Of a stretch of 10,619 nucleotides of DNA, positions 2,761 through 10,619 are shown piece by piece. The notes beneath the pieces were generated by a model, which was given only the letters and a program-made list of their open reading frames with translations, did not search any database and was not told where the DNA came from. Position 1 is the stretch's first letter. Every line of letters begins with the position of its first letter. This stretch comes from a virus. Taxonomy: Duplodnaviria; Heunggongvirae; Uroviricota; Caudoviricetes. The stretch is taken from positions 1-10,619 of the IMG/VR virus record IMGVR_UViG_2778261593_000002, one strand, 5' to 3'. The position numbers and the translations under genes were made by a program.

Positions 2761-2786
2761 AGAATACGTAAAACAAAAAACCCGCC
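2761..2786 (-). terminator. Intrinsic terminator of the hok/mok mRNA
   Basis: Minus strand reads AACCCGC-UUCG-GCGGGUU followed by UUUUUGUUUU: 6-bp GC stem, UUCG tetraloop, U-run (plus-strand A-run 2761-2770). Confidence 0.6.
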
Positions 2787-2791
2787 GAAGC

Positions 2792-2806
2792 GGGTTAAGC
2801 GCGGGT
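2792..2806 (-). promoter_or_regulatory. 3' fold-back element of the hok mRNA (fbi-like), complementary to the predicted mRNA 5' end
   Basis: Plus 2792-2806 GCGGGTGCGTTGAGG is the reverse complement of plus 3180-3193 CCTCAAGCACCCGC with a single 1-nt bulge, so the 5' and 3' ends of the minus-strand transcript can form a 14-bp duplex, as in hok-family mRNAs. Confidence 0.5.
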
Positions 2807-2865
2807 GCGTTGAGGATGCCGACACATCAGAGGTGGCGGGAGATTACTCTCCCGCCTGGTCACTC

Positions 2866-3021
2866 TTACTTCTCAGATTCGTAGTCTACGAAGACAGCAA
2901 CCTCCGTCTGGCCGGTTCGGATTCGTACCTCGCAGAGGTCTTTCCTCGTTACCAGTGCCGTCACTATGACGGTTAAACAGATGACGATCAGGGCGATTAA
3001 CATCGCCTTTTGCTGCTTCAT
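2866..3021 (-). CDS. hok: Hok/Gef-family type I toxin (small membrane peptide), 51 aa
   Basis: MKQQKAMLIALIVICLTVIVTALVTRKDLCEVRIRTGQTEVAVFVDYESEK is near-identical to Hok/Gef/RelF family sequences recalled from memory. ATG at 3021..3019 with AAGGAG Shine-Dalgarno 9 nt upstream. Confidence 0.9.
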   Translation of the reverse strand: MKQQKAMLIALIVICLTVIVTALVTRKDLCEVRIRTGQTEVAVFVDYESEK

Positions 3022-3078
3022 AGCCTGCTTCTCCTTGCCTTTCGGCACGTAAGAGGCTAACCTACATTTGTGAGACAT
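2866..3078 (-). CDS. mok: Mok-like in-frame N-terminally extended reading frame sharing the hok stop codon (70 aa)
   Basis: ATG at 3078..3076 with GAGG about 9 nt upstream; in frame with hok and adds 19 residues (MSHKCRLASYVPKGKEKQA). This mirrors the mokC/hokC arrangement (longer frame sharing the 3' end). Confidence 0.55.
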   Translation of the reverse strand: MSHKCRLASYVPKGKEKQAMKQQKAMLIALIVICLTVIVTALVTRKDLCEVRIRTGQTEVAVFVDYESEK

Positions 3079-3120
3079 AGATTGGGCCTCAGATTAATGT
3101 TAAGCGTCTTGCAGGACGCG
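3035..3120 (+). ncRNA. Candidate Sok-like antisense RNA region (promoter plus RNA) opposite the mok translation initiation region
   Basis: Plus strand TTGCCT (3035-3040) - 17 nt - TAACCT (3058-3063) would start transcription near 3070, antisense to the mok Shine-Dalgarno/ATG (3076-3095). A hairpin GCGTC-TTGCAG-GACGC lies at 3104-3119 but no clean U-run follows. Weak evidence. Confidence 0.25.
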
Positions 3121-3179
3121 TAATGTTAACTGGGGCTTTTCTCTATCTGCCTTTTGGTGTTCATGCCTGAGGCAGATAG

Positions 3180-3225
3180 CCTCAAGCACCCGCAGCAATT
3201 CTACTTAACTCTCCTTTTCCCGCAA
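3180..3225 (-). promoter_or_regulatory. Putative hok/mok promoter and mRNA 5' end
   Basis: Minus strand TTGCGG (3225..3220) - 16 nt - TAGAAT (3203..3198); predicted start near 3191, which coincides with the 5' partner (3193..3180) of the fold-back pairing. A 9-bp hairpin CTATCTGCC / GGCAGATAG (3144-3179) lies in the leader. Confidence 0.4.
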
Positions 3226-3316: not shown

Positions 3317-3708
3317 CGATTCACCTCCTGCTCAATATTTTTAAGGTCATTTTCCGCATACAGTATTGCTGTCCTGGCTGCTCGTAACCGGGCTTTGGCG
3401 TTTTTCTCTTCACGTTCAAGTTTTGCCACAGCTTCACGAAGAGCATCCCGCTTTGCATAGAGTGATTTTATCTCAGACACTATGTTTTCACCGTTTCTCG
3501 CACGCTCGAGAACAAGCTCGAACGGATCTAAAGCCAATCCGCATCGGTTACAGGTAATCGTACGATTCACTTCTGAAATTGTTGTACGGATATGCTGACA
3601 GCATTTTTGCTCGCCGCTTTTTCTGTCGGTTATCACAACGTTGAGGAGTCCTTCCTCCTCTGATTTTGGCTGTACCAGGGTGATAACATTGTCGACTTCA
3701 TTTTTCAT
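3313..3708 (-). CDS. Hypothetical phage protein, 131 aa, N-terminal Cys cluster (CC..C..C) and C-terminal coiled-coil-like region
   Basis: ATG at 3708..3706 overlaps the upstream stop (ATGA) with AGGAGG 7 nt upstream; C-terminus is Lys/Glu/Arg/Ala-rich (AKLEREEKNAKARLRAARTAILYAENDLKNIEQEV). Confidence 0.6.
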   Translation of the reverse strand: MKNEVDNVITLVQPKSEEEGLLNVVITDRKSGEQKCCQHIRTTISEVNRTITCNRCGLALDPFELVLERARNGENIVSEIKSLYAKRDALREAVAKLEREEKNAKARLRAARTAILYAENDLKNIEQEVNR

Positions 3709-8058: not shown

Positions 8059-8151
8059 GAGTCGCTCCATAAAACTGAACGTCAAAAGTTTAATAATCAA
8101 AACCAAAAAAAGTCAAGAAACAAAACCATCTGTGTTTTAAAATCAAAACAT
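8059..8151. promoter_or_regulatory. Divergent immunity control region (OR-like): PR-like and PRM-like promoters with a palindromic operator
   Basis: Perfect inverted repeat TGTTTT-aaaatc-AAAACAT at 8133-8151, overlapping the CI start codon and a TAAAAT -10 (8138-8143). Minus strand has TTGACT at 8116..8111 followed by AT-rich -10 candidates for the cro-like gene. No Shine-Dalgarno precedes the CI ATG, suggesting a leaderless transcript. Confidence 0.55.
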
Positions 8152-8788
8152 GAGCAAGCAAACTATATCTGAACGCATAACCCAACGTATGCATGCGCTA
8201 AACCTGAAAGGCAAAGACCTTGTCAATGGCACTGGCGCATCAAAAGGCTCCGTAAGTCAATGGATGAACGGTGGAGGAGCGCCGTCCTCGCGTTACATAA
8301 GTTCACTGGCAAAAATATTGAAAGTAAACGAAAATTGGCTTCTTAATGGAGGAGAGTTAAATACAGGTGATTCGCTTGATCTATCTTTACCGCCGATAAA
8401 AACGGTTCCGCTACTATCACTTCAGCAGGCAGCAAGCTGGAGTGATTATATGAAAAATTCCTCAATAACCTCTTGTGTGCAGCTTGTCGGAGAAATCCCG
8501 GTCAATACCTTTGCAGTTGTTCTAGAGAGTGACAGTATGTCAACATCTGGTGGGGGAGTTTCCATCCCAAATGGTTCAACAGTTTTTGTTGATCCCGATC
8601 GAACCGTACAACCAGGAAATATTGTCCTTGCCTTACCCAAAGGGACCACAACACCTGTCATTCGTAAACTGGAGATAGAAGGGCCGGATATTCTTTTAGT
8701 CCCCACGAATCCTCGCTACCCTTCAATTATGCTGGATGATCTATCTTGCATATTGGGCGTATGCTTTAAAATTCAACAAGATATTTAA
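8150..8788 (+). CDS. CI-type prophage repressor with N-terminal HTH and C-terminal S24 (LexA-like) autopeptidase domain, 212 aa
   Basis: N-terminal HTH (ISERITQRMHALNLKGKDLVNGTGASKGSVSQW); C-terminal ESDSM...VFVDPDR...VIRKL...LVPTNPRYPSI parallels lambda CI motifs GDSM / VDPE / KKL / LNPQYPMI. Confidence 0.85.
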   Translation: MSKQTISERITQRMHALNLKGKDLVNGTGASKGSVSQWMNGGGAPSSRYISSLAKILKVNENWLLNGGELNTGDSLDLSLPPIKTVPLLSLQQAASWSDYMKNSSITSCVQLVGEIPVNTFAVVLESDSMSTSGGGVSIPNGSTVFVDPDRTVQPGNIVLALPKGTTTPVIRKLEIEGPDILLVPTNPRYPSIMLDDLSCILGVCFKIQQDI

Positions 8789-8901: not shown

Positions 8902-9080
8902 TCATTCATTCCCTCACCCCATCCTACAGAATGCAGGGCAATACTTCGAGTTACCAGGCAGTGGTCAGGGGTTAAGTAGCCAGCCCGAGGCGTAAGAACA
9001 TGACGGCAGGGTTCAACTTTAATAACTATGCAGCAGGTTTTTGTTCCGCTACCCCGGCGTTAAGGGGAAATGAGGTCAGC

Positions 9081-9236
9081 ATGGATACTATCGATCTTGG
9101 CAACAACGAATCTCTGGTGTGCGGCGTGTTTCCCAACCAGGACGGCACATTCACCGCGATGACGTATACCAAAAGCAAAACGTTTAAAACCGAAAATGGT
9201 GCCCGTCGCTGGCTGGAAAGAAACTCAGGTGAGTGA
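9081..9236 (+). CDS. YdfA/YdaF-like small protein, 51 aa
   Basis: ORF 9000..9236 trimmed to ATG 9081 with GAGG 7 nt upstream; size and position as first gene after the repressor match ydfA of the Qin dicB operon. Identity is inferred from position and size, not sequence recall. Confidence 0.55.
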   Translation: MDTIDLGNNESLVCGVFPNQDGTFTAMTYTKSKTFKTENGARRWLERNSGE

Positions 9237-9237
9237 T

Positions 9238-9366
9238 ATGGATTTCGACACAATCATGGAAAAGGCTTACGAAGAATACTTCGAAGGCCTTGCCGAAGGC
9301 GAAGAAGCTCTCAGCTTCAGTGAGTTTAAACAGGCGCTTTCCAGTTCGGCAAAATCTAACGGCTGA
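9238..9366 (+). CDS. YdfB-like small acidic protein, 42 aa (below the ORF-track cutoff)
   Basis: ATG at 9238, 1 nt after the upstream stop, with AGGTGAG upstream; translation MDFDTIMEKAYEEYFEGLAEGEEALSFSEFKQALSSSAKSNG; TGA at 9364-9366. Confidence 0.5.
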   Translation: MDFDTIMEKAYEEYFEGLAEGEEALSFSEFKQALSSSAKSNG

Positions 9367-9396
9367 TAAGCGAAATAGCACCGCGAGGAATTCAGT

Positions 9397-9612
9397 ATGA
9401 AGAAACAAGAACCCGTCATCATCGCGCCAGACTATACCGATGATGAAATTTACGAATGGATGTGCGGGAAGATACGCGCCATTAATGACCTGAAGCAGGC
9501 TGCTGACTACAAAGAGCGCCTCTCTAAAGAGCTGGCGTCAGCGGAGCAGGATATTACCTCTCTGGCAAAAAACGCGGCATTAAACGTTTCGCGAGTGATT
9601 GCAAACTACTGA
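9397..9612 (+). CDS. YdfC-like small protein, 71 aa
   Basis: ATG 9397 with GAGGAA 9 nt upstream; third small gene of the operon, matching ydfC in position and size. Confidence 0.55.
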   Translation: MKKQEPVIIAPDYTDDEIYEWMCGKIRAINDLKQAADYKERLSKELASAEQDITSLAKNAALNVSRVIANY

Positions 9613-9627
9613 CCGATGAGGTTGACG

Positions 9628-9807
9628 ATGAATGAGACAGAACTTAAACACGTTATTGCCTTGCTTCTGGAAGATGCAAAACGCTTACATGAACTGGAAC
9701 CCAATGCAGGCACAGAGGCCCGCATTTGGTTAGCAAAAAAATGCCTGGATAGTAAAAGTTTTCAGAAAGAAATAACAATCAGTTTTGAGAATTCGCCTCA
9801 TCTATGA
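9628..9807 (+). CDS. Hypothetical small protein, 59 aa
   Basis: ORF 9616..9807; second ATG at 9628 has GAGG 8 nt upstream; its 3' end overlaps a convergent minus-strand ORF by 29 nt. Confidence 0.35.
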   Translation: MNETELKHVIALLLEDAKRLHELEPNAGTEARIWLAKKCLDSKSFQKEITISFENSPHL

Positions 9808-10009
9808 ATTGTTGAATCAGGTTTGCTAATTCAGTGGCATGTTTATCACCTGTGCTTTTTAAAGCATCTGTTACACAATCTGAGCGAAGTTCTGGCGGAA
9901 GTCTTGTTGCCATCAAAGCTATCGCGAGCTTAATGGCTCTTAACTCAGCATTTATTCCATCATGGGATAAATCATTATTAATAGTGGTTTTTATTGTGTT
10001 CAAAATCAC
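9779..10009 (-). CDS. Hypothetical small helical protein, about 74-76 aa, antisense to the surrounding operon
   Basis: AGGAGG at 10015..10010 sits right at the GTG (10009..10007); a TTG at 10003..10001 gives 6-nt spacing. Composition looks protein-like (LRAIKLAIALMATRLPPELRSDCVTDALK). Confidence 0.4.
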   Translation of the reverse strand: MILNTIKTTINNDLSHDGINAELRAIKLAIALMATRLPPELRSDCVTDALKSTGDKHATELANLIQQFIDEANSQN

Positions 10010-10337
10010 CCTCCTGAGGGTTGTTAATTAAGGAGTTCTCCACGGGTCAGGTGGAGTGCGTGCGCCGGACACGGGTGAGCATCCGGCACTGACAGTTTAC
10101 TGAAAGGATATATCCCTGAAAAGTCAGGGCATAACGCGAAAGCGCACGGCGAAGTTATTTCTCCCTCTGTTGCGTGCCACCGGCATCTTCGACCGTGCGC
10201 TTCCGGTTGTGGCAATCCGCGAAATGGCGCGGCGGTAAGTATGGCGGGGTTATTCTTTCCCCGTTGAGGACACCGGGTTGTCAGGTTGACCATACGCTTA
10301 AGTGACAACCCCGCTGCAACGCCCTCTGTTATCAATA

Positions 10338-10394
10338 TTCTGGTGACATTTGGCGGTATCAGTTTTACTCCGTGACTGCTCTGCCGCCCTTTTT
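10338..10394 (+). ncRNA. dicF: DicF small regulatory RNA with its Rho-independent terminator
   Basis: TTCTGGTGACATTTGGCGGTATCAGTTTTACTCCGTGACTGCTCTGCCGCCCTTTTTT matches the E. coli DicF sequence as I recall it with one or two substitutions; GGCGG...CCGCC stem followed by a T-run; position between ydfC-like and dicB-like genes. Confidence 0.8.
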
Positions 10395-10574
10395 TAAAAG
10401 TGAATTTTGTGATGCGGTGAATGCGGCTCAGCGCACGCGGAACAGTTAAATCGGTAAAGCGGTCATTTGCTGAGTAACGGGAATGCTCTGTATCCGGCGT
10501 TAATTGTTAACTGGTTAACGTCACCTGGAGGCACCAGGCACTGCATCACAAAATTCATTGTTGAGGACGCGATA

Positions 10575-10619
10575 ATGGAAAAGTTATCATACAATGCCAG
10601 TACGTCTGAACTTCGTTTC
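10575..10619 (+). CDS. Window-truncated start of a DicB-like cell-division inhibitor gene
   Basis: ATG 10575 with GAGGA 7 nt upstream; MEKLSYNASTSELRF shares about 7 of 15 residues with the N-terminus of E. coli DicB as I recall it (MKTLLPNVNTSEGCF), and sits downstream of DicF as dicB does. Confidence 0.4.
   Translation, partial: MEKLSYNASTSELRF

What the first reader, a model, noticed from the sequence alone, without database searches (positions are those of the whole stretch)
9628..10009. Convergent overlapping small-gene pair inside the ydfC-dicF spacer
Where the Qin-type operon is expected to be untranslated spacer, there is a plus-strand 59-aa ORF and a convergent minus-strand 74-76-aa ORF with a perfect AGGAGG ribosome site, overlapping at their 3' ends by 29 nt. 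An antisense gene embedded in the operon would create transcriptional interference and antisense overlap, a layout reminiscent of toxin/antitoxin or anti-defence inserts.
Basis: seen in the sequence. Interest (0 to 1): 0.5.

Follow-up and report, generated by a model that had tools for sequence, protein, structure and literature searches.

The report
Swappable convergent gene pair before dicF
The two small overlapping ORFs are real prophage genes of unknown function that fill a swappable slot left empty in E. coli K-12, so this is ordinary prophage mosaicism, with no sign of a toxin-antitoxin system.

Summary
A 59-aa plus-strand ORF (9628-9807) and a 74-aa minus-strand ORF (9779-10003, TTG start, AGGAGG six bases upstream) converge and overlap by 29 nt. 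Together they form a 412-bp block that K-12 Qin replaces with about 30 bp.

Both are real genes. The plus ORF belongs to the widespread YmfJ family (e14 prophage): a near-invariant 40-aa core plus a variable tail. The minus ORF belongs to a rare, uncharacterised helical family (phrog_7249; 13 clusters in 5.8 billion proteins). In seven independent contexts this family is a lone antisense gene inside a one-directional phage operon, overlapping its neighbour's 3' end.

The block is one allele of a hypervariable slot. Most Qin-like prophages sampled have it empty. Others carry at least five other cassettes, four of them with unrelated antisense genes; three of those start after the same constant leader and ribosome site.

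Nothing supports a toxin-antitoxin or known defence system. Both proteins are soluble, neither matches Pfam, NCBIfam or PADLOC, and the partner is not fixed.

The likely logic is an antisense accessory gene expressed when the dicBF operon is repressed, as in the e14 ymfI-ymfJ pair. This is inferred only; no convincing promoter was found. Modest interest.

The parts
9397..9612 (+). ydfC-like gene (71 aa); the constant left flank of the slot
   Evidence: phrog_1744, E=2.5e-27. Aligns to K-12 ydfC. Annotated as hypothetical protein or YdfC in related E. coli loci.
9607..10018 (.). 412-bp variable cassette relative to K-12 Qin. Its boundaries fall at the ribosome site/start of the plus gene and at the ribosome site/start of the minus gene.
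   Evidence: blastn against K-12; junction alignments A2 and A3. Complete in only 4 of 5426 complete E. coli genomes.
9628..9807 (+). YmfJ-family small protein gene, 59 aa. The conserved core is residues 1-44 (9628-9759). The tail (9760-9807) runs into the antisense gene.
   Evidence: phrog_30817/12693/2982, N-terminal 44-48 residues matched. 64% identical to e14 YmfJ over 55 residues; nucleotides 9627-9738 are about 80% identical to K-12 ymfJ. 174 clusters, many only 47-52 aa long. PGAP calls it WP_062873958.1. Core: 2 synonymous, 0 non-synonymous changes; tail: 0 synonymous, 4 non-synonymous.
9779..10003 (-). Gene for a 74-aa acidic, all-helical protein of a rare uncharacterised prophage family (phrog_7249); TTG start
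   Evidence: phrog_7249, E=2.8e-19, full length. Family alignment A1. Only open frame in 7 homologues. PGAP calls it WP_032083067.1. AlphaFold2 model of 3-4 helices, pLDDT 69. GC 0.37 and inverted AT skew.
9779..9807 (.). 29-nt overlap of the two 3' ends
   Evidence: Sequence. Homologues of the 74-aa gene overlap their convergent neighbour by 35-119 nt in six other contexts.
10008..10021 (.). Palindrome ACCCTCCTGAGGGT containing the minus-strand AGGAGG (10015-10010). It is part of the constant leader shared by unrelated antisense genes.
   Evidence: The same CCCTCAGGAGGGTGA-start precedes the 92-aa (XDL), about 91-aa (L062) and 77-aa (O157:H7) antisense genes.
10019..10337 (.). Constant right flank: on the plus strand the dicF precursor, on the minus strand the 5' leader region of whichever antisense gene occupies the slot
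   Evidence: About 90% identical to K-12 and 91% to XDL. The K-12 190-nt DicF precursor starts at an RNase III cut about 137 nt upstream of dicF (10.1101/2023.04.14.536235). Minus-strand RNA 9990-10125 folds with z=-2.34, the plus strand with z=0.09.
10094..10122 (-). Weak sigma-70-like candidate promoter TTTTCA-17-TAAACT (8 of 12 matches) about 91 nt upstream of the TTG start; unproven
   Evidence: My own relaxed scan. The tool's 9-of-12 scan found nothing upstream of the gene. The motif is conserved in the K-12, XDL, STEC383, ETEC1746 and O157 flanks.
10338..10389 (+). DicF small RNA
   Evidence: Rfam RF00039, 77 bits, E=4.8e-16.
10575..10619 (+). Start of dicB (runs off the window)
   Evidence: Translation MEKLSYNASTSELRF matches the DicB-position ORF in L010. 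dicB is annotated at this position in related loci.

Best explanation
The stretch is a two-gene accessory cassette in a hypervariable slot of the early-left (dicBF) operon of a Qin-like lambdoid prophage. It is not an insertion into a spacer. SHOWN: (1) The plus gene encodes a YmfJ-family small protein. By position it is read with ydfABC, dicF and dicB. (2) The minus gene encodes a 74-aa soluble helical protein of a rare family that is always found as a lone antisense gene inside a one-directional phage operon, overlapping the 3' end of its convergent neighbour. (3) The cassette boundaries coincide with the two start codons. The ribosome site and leader on the minus side are constant DNA shared with unrelated antisense genes in other prophages, and they are retained in degenerate form in K-12, whose slot is empty. 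Recombination in these constant flanks can therefore explain how alleles are swapped. INFERRED: the antisense gene is transcribed from signals in the constant leader while the repressor keeps the dicB promoter off, that is, in the lysogen. When the operon is derepressed, converging transcription and RNase III cleavage of the overlapping RNAs shut the antisense gene off, and antisense transcription may in turn dampen leaky read-through into the toxic dicF and dicB. This is the excludon logic reported for e14 ymfI-ymfJ. The 74-aa protein would then be a lysogen-expressed accessory ('moron') product, most plausibly acting in phage-phage or phage-host conflict. Its molecular target is unknown.
For: Real genes: PHROG matches; family conservation with a single open frame; the substitution pattern; PGAP annotation; GC 0.37 and an AT-skew flip. 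Slot and allele swapping: alignment to K-12; the same leader and ribosome site before unrelated antisense genes; at least six cassette types plus the empty state; the antisense genes fall in different PHROG families and show no profile similarity. Conserved solo-antisense layout with 3' overlap in 7 of 7 contexts. Expression logic by analogy: e14 ymfJ is induced late in SOS and the protein is detected, whereas ymfI responds weakly (PMC11002266); ymfI-ymfJ and Rac sieB-ydaF are listed as convergent excludons (PMC12288877). The minus-strand leader folds better than shuffled sequence, with G-U pairs valid only on that strand. In K-12 the dicBF transcript is a single unit from dicBp with no internal promoter detected on the plus strand.
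Against: No consensus sigma-70 promoter lies upstream of the antisense gene here or in three other contexts. There is only an 8-of-12 candidate. No terminator was found on either strand. There are no transcript or translation data for this cassette. The start codon is a weak TTG. Function is wholly unassigned: no Pfam, NCBIfam or PADLOC hits, no structural neighbours and no PDB relatives. Support for the leader structure rests on 15 distinct, closely related sequences with mixed signals. The slot survey is a convenience sample.
Confidence: 0.6

Rival explanations
1. The pair is a toxin-antitoxin or other obligate two-component module, with one protein neutralising the other or an antisense RNA controlling a toxin.
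For: Small size, tight convergent overlap and a prophage location. The window also carries a genuine hok/sok locus elsewhere, so such modules do occur in this element.
Against: No match to any Pfam, NCBIfam or PADLOC model. Both proteins are hydrophilic and acidic without a membrane segment, unlike type I toxins. Convergent orientation is unlike type II operons. The partners are not faithful: the 74-aa family pairs with a YmfJ-core gene in 2 of 7 contexts. YmfJ-core genes pair with phrog_8894 or phrog_18692 genes, or with a co-directional gene. In E. coli M056 the plus gene survives with the antisense gene deleted.
Confidence: 0.05
2. The minus-strand unit matters mainly as RNA. Antisense transcription from the constant leader dampens leaky dicBF read-through or alters ydfABC/dicF processing by RNase III, and the encoded peptides are incidental and interchangeable.
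For: Unrelated coding sequences follow the same leader. The leader is kept even where the slot is empty, as in K-12. The minus-strand leader is structured. dicF maturation depends on RNase III. DicB and DicF are toxic when overexpressed.
Against: The 74-aa protein is conserved at the amino-acid level at 34-46% identity in contexts without dicF, which an RNA-only role does not explain. Every family member has a ribosome site before an ATG or TTG. Conservation of the leader is also explained by its plus-strand role as the dicF precursor.
Confidence: 0.2
3. The 74-aa ORF is a non-functional or spurious antisense frame in a decaying remnant of a longer plus-strand gene.
For: The plus ORF matches only the N-terminal 44-48 residues of longer PHROG families. 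Its tail is unconstrained. The cassette is rare.
Against: Many YmfJ-family proteins consist of the 47-52-aa core alone, so the plus gene need not be truncated. The minus frame is the only open frame in all homologues, has its own family with conserved residues and start position, and shows the compositional signature of a minus-strand gene.
Confidence: 0.05
4. The 74-aa protein is a regulator of the prophage's own switch, for example a modulator of the neighbouring repressor or of early gene expression, rather than a host-benefit or conflict gene.
For: In 5 of 7 contexts the family lies one to four genes from the repressor gene, an S24 cI-like repressor in four of them (window), and is transcribed towards it.
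Against: In Arsenophonus it lies between RusA and lysozyme genes, far from the immunity region, and the Yersinia neighbour has no S24 domain on record. The gene is dispensable in most Qin-like prophages. No DNA-binding or known regulator fold was detected.
Confidence: 0.1

Closest known systems
e14 prophage ymfJ-ymfI pair of E. coli K-12
   Same: The plus-type gene shares the same conserved core (64% identity over 55 residues; about 80% nucleotide identity). It lies in the early-left operon beside a cI-like repressor. It is followed by a convergent small gene that overlaps its 3' end (63 nt in e14, 29 nt here). The e14 pair is listed as an RNA-seq excludon, and ymfJ is induced late in SOS.
   Different: YmfI (113 aa, phrog_8894) is unrelated to the 74-aa protein (phrog_7249). 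YmfJ has a 58-aa C-terminal extension absent here. In e14 the pair lies directly after the repressor, not after ydfABC.
K-12 Qin dicBF operon (ydfABC-dicF-dicB)
   Same: Same gene order and constant flanks. dicF is a full Rfam match, and the region upstream of dicF is about 90% identical.
   Different: In K-12 the slot between ydfC and the dicF precursor is empty (about 30 bp), retaining only degenerate remnants of both ribosome-site regions.
Other cassettes in the same slot (O157:H7 135 aa/77 aa; XDL 133 aa/92 aa; STEC383 216 aa/69 aa; L062 about 109 aa/91 aa; L020-22 52 aa + 211 aa/172 aa)
   Same: Same position, with a plus-strand gene or genes ending against an antisense gene. The O157, XDL and L062 types share the identical antisense leader and AGGAGG site. 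The XDL and L020-22 plus genes contain the YmfJ core.
   Different: The antisense proteins belong to different PHROG families (18692, 10348, 4274, 1244) with no detectable similarity to the 74-aa family. The STEC383 and L020-22 junctions lie 40-100 nt further into the flank.
Phage 'morons' (accessory transcription units between conserved phage genes; from my own knowledge of the Hendrix/Juhala concept)
   Same: Presence/absence polymorphism between otherwise collinear prophages, lower GC than the flanks (0.37 against 0.47-0.55), and an orientation independent of the surrounding operon.
   Different: No recognisable promoter or terminator of its own. The expression signals appear to belong to the constant flank rather than to the insert. 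The cassette carries two genes that overlap.
Excludons (convergent genes with overlapping transcripts giving mutually exclusive expression)
   Same: The geometry: convergent genes with overlapping 3' ends and no terminator between them.
   Different: Overlapping transcripts have not been shown for this locus, only for the e14 and Rac analogues in K-12.

Membership tests
YmfJ family (phrog_12693/30817/2982; e14 YmfJ) | Conserved core of about 40 aa, ELKHVIALLLEDAKRLQQLEPNAGTEARIWLAK | tested here: met
   E=3e-23 to 8e-13 against the three PHROGs. 11 invariant and 11 near-invariant columns, all present in the window protein.
YmfJ family (phrog_12693/30817/2982; e14 YmfJ) | Location in a temperate-phage operon, commonly the early-left operon near the repressor | tested here: met
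   Window layout. Same position in e14, phiES15, XDL and L011. A Klebsiella variant lies near the lysis and terminase genes instead.
phrog_7249 (74-aa helical family) | Full-length sequence match to the family profile | tested here: met
   E=2.8e-19 over residues 2-72 of a 73-position profile. 34-46% identity to six further clusters, aligned end to end.
phrog_7249 (74-aa helical family) | Lone antisense gene within a one-directional phage operon, with 3' overlap of the convergent neighbour (a feature I derived here; it is not a curated definition) | tested here: met
   7 of 7 contexts (window).
Type II toxin-antitoxin system | Two adjacent co-transcribed genes | tested here: not met
   The genes are convergent.
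Type II toxin-antitoxin system | Recognisable toxin or antitoxin domain | tested here: not met
   No Pfam, NCBIfam or PADLOC match at E below 0.01.
Type II toxin-antitoxin system | Faithful co-occurrence of the two partners | tested here: not met
   The partners vary.
Type I toxin-antitoxin system (hok/sok-like) | Small hydrophobic membrane toxin | tested here: not met
   Maximum 19-residue Kyte-Doolittle mean is 1.0 and 0.13; GRAVY is -0.30 and -0.43.
Type I toxin-antitoxin system (hok/sok-like) | Cognate antisense RNA family | tested here: not met
   The Rfam gathering scan finds only sok at 3016-3191 and DicF at 10338-10389; nothing falls in 9600-10030.
Known anti-phage defence systems (PADLOC v2) | Match to a defence-protein model | tested here: not met
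   No significant hits for this pair or for seven other antisense proteins, five from this slot and two from other YmfJ pairs. The library dates from 2023, so newer systems are not covered.
Excludon | Convergent genes without an intervening terminator | tested here: met
   29-nt ORF overlap; no terminator-like site between the genes.
Excludon | Overlapping antisense transcripts and mutually exclusive expression | not testable with these tools
   This needs strand-specific RNA data from a carrier strain. Only the e14 analogue is documented.
Moron | Presence/absence between collinear phages, with deviant base composition | tested here: met
Moron | Own promoter and terminator | tested here: inconclusive
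   No site with 9 of 12 matches; one 8-of-12 candidate in the constant flank; no terminator.

The most novel reading that the evidence does not exclude
The ydfC-dicF junction of Qin-like prophages may be a dedicated diversity slot. Constant expression signals on both sides (a plus-strand ribosome site after ydfC, and a structured minus-strand leader ending in AGGAGG) would frame 'start-to-start' cassettes that are exchanged by recombination. The antisense position would hold a rotating set of at least six unrelated, uncharacterised small proteins that are expressed in the lysogen and act in phage-phage or phage-host conflict, such as exclusion, defence or counter-defence. The 74-aa protein would then represent a new effector family.
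Probability: 0.2. Interest if true: 0.6.

Novelty: new member of a known kind. Interest (0 to 1): 0.3.

Why it matters
The dicBF operon is a much-studied cryptic-prophage locus: DicF regulates ftsZ and manX, and DicB inhibits cell division and blocks some phage infections. The K-12 version has shaped the view that ydfC and dicF are separated by spacer only. In other strains, including O157:H7, this position carries a convergent gene pair, and the antisense member is drawn from several unrelated families behind one constant leader. That has two consequences. Antisense transcription could influence dicF and dicB output in those strains. The slot is also a compact place to look for new lysogen-expressed small proteins. 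All of these proteins, including YmfJ itself, are of unknown function. For this particular cassette the practical value is modest: it is rare, already annotated as two hypothetical proteins, and no function can be assigned.

Tried and rejected
1. Pfam, NCBIfam and PADLOC scans of both proteins gave nothing significant.
2. AlphaFold2 models of the 74-aa protein, from a single sequence and from a 7-sequence alignment, reached pLDDT of about 69. Foldseek against the PDB and BFVD gave no hit with E below 0.8. The third fold-search job was not used, because the model is short, helical and of middling confidence.
3. Profile searches of the PDB with both family alignments gave no hits.
4. A scan of GTDB species-representative genomes for the 74-aa protein found nothing. 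IMG/VR gave three near-identical loci.
5. hhalign of the 74-aa family against four other antisense proteins (three from this slot, one from the Yersinia locus L014) was not significant; the best was E=0.011 over 24 columns for L014_77. A common origin is therefore not shown.
6. The tool's promoter and terminator scans of the window and of three homologous contexts found no promoter upstream of the gene. My relaxed scan gave only an 8-of-12 candidate.
7. The 103-aa minus ORF at 10024-10335, which would have formed an operon with the 74-aa gene, is frame-shifted or stop-containing in K-12, XDL, L008 and L020/22. I rejected it as spurious.
8. Covariation support for the minus-strand leader hairpins was inconclusive. 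Only 15 distinct, closely related sequences were available. One compensatory change is strand-neutral, and the other single changes point both ways. No covariance model was built.
9. Literature searches for antisense transcription starts near ydfC, and for the original e14 analysis paper, returned nothing usable.
10. The long repetitive proteins P0002, P0007 and P0008 in the exhaustive search matched through many short stretches. I treated them as compositional hits.

Full report
**Setting.** The window is the regulatory and early region of a lambdoid prophage. On the minus strand it carries Q antiterminator, RusA, DUF968, DUF551, DUF977, a replication-initiator-like HTH protein and YdaT-like genes, plus a hok/sok locus (Rfam sok, 121.7 bits, 3016-3191). 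A cI-like repressor with an S24 peptidase domain lies at 8150-8788. It is followed on the plus strand by a DUF1391/ydfA-like gene, a ydfB-like ORF, a ydfC-like gene (9397-9612), the region in question, DicF (10338-10389, 77 bits) and the start of dicB at 10575. No complete E. coli genome covers more than about 74% of the window in one place, so it is a mosaic.

- The plus ORF runs from ATG 9628 to TGA 9807 (59 aa), with GAGG six bases upstream.
- The minus ORF runs from TTG 10003 (or GTG 10009) to TGA 9781-9779, with AGGAGG at 10015-10010.
- The two overlap at 9779-9807, which is 29 nt.
- Against K-12 Qin, window 9043-9606 aligns to ydfABC and 10019-10618 to the K-12 spacer, dicF and dicB. Window 9607-10018 (412 bp) stands in place of about 30 bp.
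- The K-12 remnant keeps a degenerate copy of the plus gene's ribosome-site region and of the sequence just upstream of the minus gene's ribosome site. The difference is therefore exactly 'both genes, from start codon to start codon'.

**The minus ORF is a real gene.**
- It matches phrog_7249 over its full length (E=2.8e-19).
- An exhaustive HMMER search of 1.84 billion representative proteins found six small-protein relatives at 34-46% identity. A profile search of 5.8 billion proteins found 13 clusters, from E. coli, Salmonella, Yersinia and Arsenophonus, all labelled hypothetical.
- The alignment fixes the start at the TTG (74 aa), as PGAP annotates in ETEC1746 and CEA224S.
- The family frame is the only one of six without stops in all seven homologues.
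- Among close relatives it shows 5 synonymous and 3 non-synonymous changes.
- GC falls to 0.37 and AT skew changes sign over the gene.
- Every homologue has a Shine-Dalgarno-like AAGGA before its ATG.
- The protein is acidic (pI 5.1), hydrophilic, lacks a membrane segment and is predicted to form three or four helices at moderate confidence.

**The plus ORF is also a real gene.**
- Its first 44 residues are the near-invariant core of the YmfJ family.
- It is 64% identical to e14 YmfJ over 55 residues. It is 72-78% identical, over 40-44 residues, to phiES15 gp010 and to the middle of a 133-aa E. coli protein.
- Nucleotides 9627-9738 are about 80% identical to K-12 ymfJ.
- The family has 174 clusters across Enterobacterales. 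Lengths range from 44 to 104 aa and many members are only 47-52 aa long. A 59-aa member is therefore not a truncated pseudogene.
- The tail after the core is hypervariable in the family. Here the core shows only synonymous changes and the tail only non-synonymous ones. The single overlap-site change is synonymous for the minus gene and non-synonymous for the plus gene.
- The tails of unrelated upstream genes that run into homologues of the 74-aa gene resemble one another: ITISFENSP, ITVRFDNAP, VTYTFRVDDAP, LSVKFDYAP. This is as expected if they are simply the antisense reading of that gene's conserved C-terminus.

**The layout is conserved.** In all seven independent contexts the 74-aa family is a lone gene pointing against a one-directional block of phage genes, and it overlaps the 3' end of the convergent neighbour by 29-119 nt.

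| Context | Location |
|---|---|
| Window | early-left operon, four genes from the S24 cI-like repressor |
| Two E. coli assemblies and one sequencing-run contig (L011-L013) | beside an S24 cI-like repressor |
| Yersinia (L014) | two genes from a Cro/YdaS-like gene; the neighbouring 160-aa gene has no Pfam domain on record |
| Sequencing-run (Logan) contig (L015) | beside an S24 cI-like repressor |
| Salmonella phage 118970_sal3 (L016) | near a gene annotated 'regulatory protein' |
| Arsenophonus (L147) | between RusA and lysozyme genes |
| Sequencing-run (Logan) contig (L148) | beside an S24 cI-like repressor |

The neighbour is a YmfJ-core protein only in the window and in L011. Elsewhere it is a ClpX-type zinc-finger protein or another small protein. 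Conversely, YmfJ-core genes are followed by convergent genes of other families. These are phrog_8894 (YmfI in e14, an unannotated 95-aa ORF in phiES15 and a 95-aa gene in Klebsiella) and phrog_18692 (XDL). In L020 a co-directional gene follows instead. In E. coli M056 the antisense gene has been deleted, leaving its last codons fused to the flank.

**The position is a hypervariable slot with constant edges.**
- Unrelated antisense genes begin immediately after the same leader, GTGGAGAACTCCTTAATTA(A/C)CAACCCTCAGGAGGGTGA. These are the 74-aa gene here, a 92-aa gene in XDL/AVS0193, an approximately 91-aa gene in L062/L047 and a 77-aa gene in O157:H7.
- The STEC383 (69 aa) and L020-22 (172 aa) cassettes join the flank 40-100 nt further in.
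- The antisense proteins fall in different PHROG families, none with a known function and none in PADLOC. They show no profile similarity to the 74-aa family.
- In a convenience sample of 59 loci with both flanks, 37 were empty. Eleven had a 407-nt slot: seven carry this cassette and four carry a 124-aa plus gene with no antisense gene. The remaining 11 carried five further size classes.
- In an evenly spaced sample of E. coli complete genomes, roughly 27 of 38 two-flank matches were empty and about 10 carried other cassettes.
- This cassette is complete in 4 of 5426 genomes.

**How it probably works.**
- *Shown:* in K-12, dicF and dicB are made from one transcript that starts at dicBp upstream of ydfA. 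DicA represses this promoter, and RNase III and RNase E process the transcript. The 190-nt DicF precursor starts about 137 nt upstream of dicF, which is downstream of the cassette position.
- *Inferred from position:* the plus gene here is part of that unit.
- *Inferred from the junctions:* the antisense gene has no room for a promoter inside the cassette, so any promoter must lie in the constant leader.
- *Evidence for such a promoter is thin.* No site reaches 9 of 12 matches. One conserved 8-of-12 candidate, TTTTCA-17-TAAACT, lies at 10122-10094.
- The minus-strand RNA of the leader folds better than shuffled sequence (z=-2.34) whereas the plus strand does not (z=0.09). Its main hairpin uses three G-U pairs, which exist only on the minus strand.
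- *By analogy:* e14 ymfI-ymfJ and Rac sieB-ydaF are listed as RNA-seq excludons. ymfJ, but hardly ymfI, rises late in SOS.

I therefore infer that the antisense gene is expressed while the operon is repressed and is silenced by converging transcription on induction. What the 74-aa protein does is unknown. A lysogen-expressed conflict or host-modulating role is a guess based on the layout and on the diversity of the slot.

Toxin-antitoxin membership fails every testable feature (see the membership table). A defence or anti-defence role cannot be assessed beyond the negative PADLOC result.

**Verdict.** This is a correct and careful observation of a real but ordinary kind of feature: two already-annotated hypothetical prophage genes forming one rare allele of a mosaic accessory slot. 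The more interesting point is the slot itself, with its constant leader and interchangeable antisense genes upstream of dicF, rather than this allele.

Noticed in passing
window 3016-3191 (- strand): A complete hok/sok-type locus: Rfam sok antitoxin RNA, 121.7 bits, E=5e-28. It is a genuine type I toxin-antitoxin module elsewhere in the same prophage.
   Followed up: no
window 10114-10129: Hairpin CCCTGA-AAAG-TCAGGG in the constant flank, whose 5' half resembles lambda boxB (GCCCUGAAAAAGGGC). Related loci show one compensatory change (CCCTGA/TCAGGG to CTCTGA/TCAGAG in L025, L101). No boxA-like sequence precedes it on the plus strand. It overlaps the -35 element of the weak minus-strand promoter candidate.
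   Followed up: partly
window 10060-10089 and 10038-10056: Two further hairpins lie in the constant flank. As minus-strand RNA the first forms 11 pairs including three G-U pairs, but only about 6 pairs as plus-strand RNA. The minus-strand fold of 9990-10125 has z=-2.34, against 0.09 for the plus strand.
   Followed up: partly
window 10024-10335 (- strand): A 103-aa ORF spans the whole dicF-precursor flank. It is frame-shifted in K-12 and XDL and contains stops in L008 and L020/L022, so it is spurious.
   Followed up: yes
L011 about 2920-2960; L015 about 120-170; L016 about 3430-3480; L020-L022 upstream of the 172-aa antisense gene: A conserved non-coding block, GCCTGCTTTTA(A/G)CCACATCAGGCGAGGTGG...CCCCAACAACAAGGA, lies upstream of antisense genes of different families. 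It is partly homologous to the window's flank (GCCCTGACTTTTCAGGG). It could be a shared promoter or leader element. When read through it translates as 'LLLTTSGEVVPV(I/V)PQQQ', which inflates some ORF calls.
   Followed up: partly
window 9627-9738; phage records JQ780327 (Cronobacter phiES15) and OL964755 (Aeromonas phage pAEv1818): The YmfJ core is conserved at the nucleotide level (80-84%) between E. coli prophages, a Cronobacter phage and an Aeromonas phage. This is unusually high for such distant hosts. It may reflect a role as a recombination linker, or very strong constraint.
   Followed up: no
L006 (phiES15) 2764-3051, - strand in the locus: An unannotated 95-aa ORF of the YmfI family (by similarity to the Klebsiella 95-aa protein, which matches phrog_8894) is convergent with the YmfJ-like gene gp010 and overlaps it by 30 nt. 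It appears to be missing from the GenBank annotation.
   Followed up: partly
L023 (E. coli M056) 2492-2774: A 59-aa YmfJ-core gene whose tail resembles the window's (EKITVSFECAPYL) is followed directly by the constant flank. Only the last eight or so codons (INKAHTRN*) of a 74-aa-family gene remain, so this is a deletion derivative of a cassette like the window's.
   Followed up: partly
L014 (Yersinia enterocolitica) 2149-2639: A second convergent pair lies next to the first: an 86-aa YmfJ-core protein and a 77-aa antisense protein. The N-terminus of the latter weakly resembles the 74-aa family (hhalign E=0.011 over 24 columns), so it may be a very diverged paralogue.
   Followed up: partly
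L021 1199-1677: In one Qin-like prophage a PaaA2/ParE toxin-antitoxin pair is inserted between the repressor and ydfA. The early-left operon therefore has more than one accessory insertion point.
   Followed up: no
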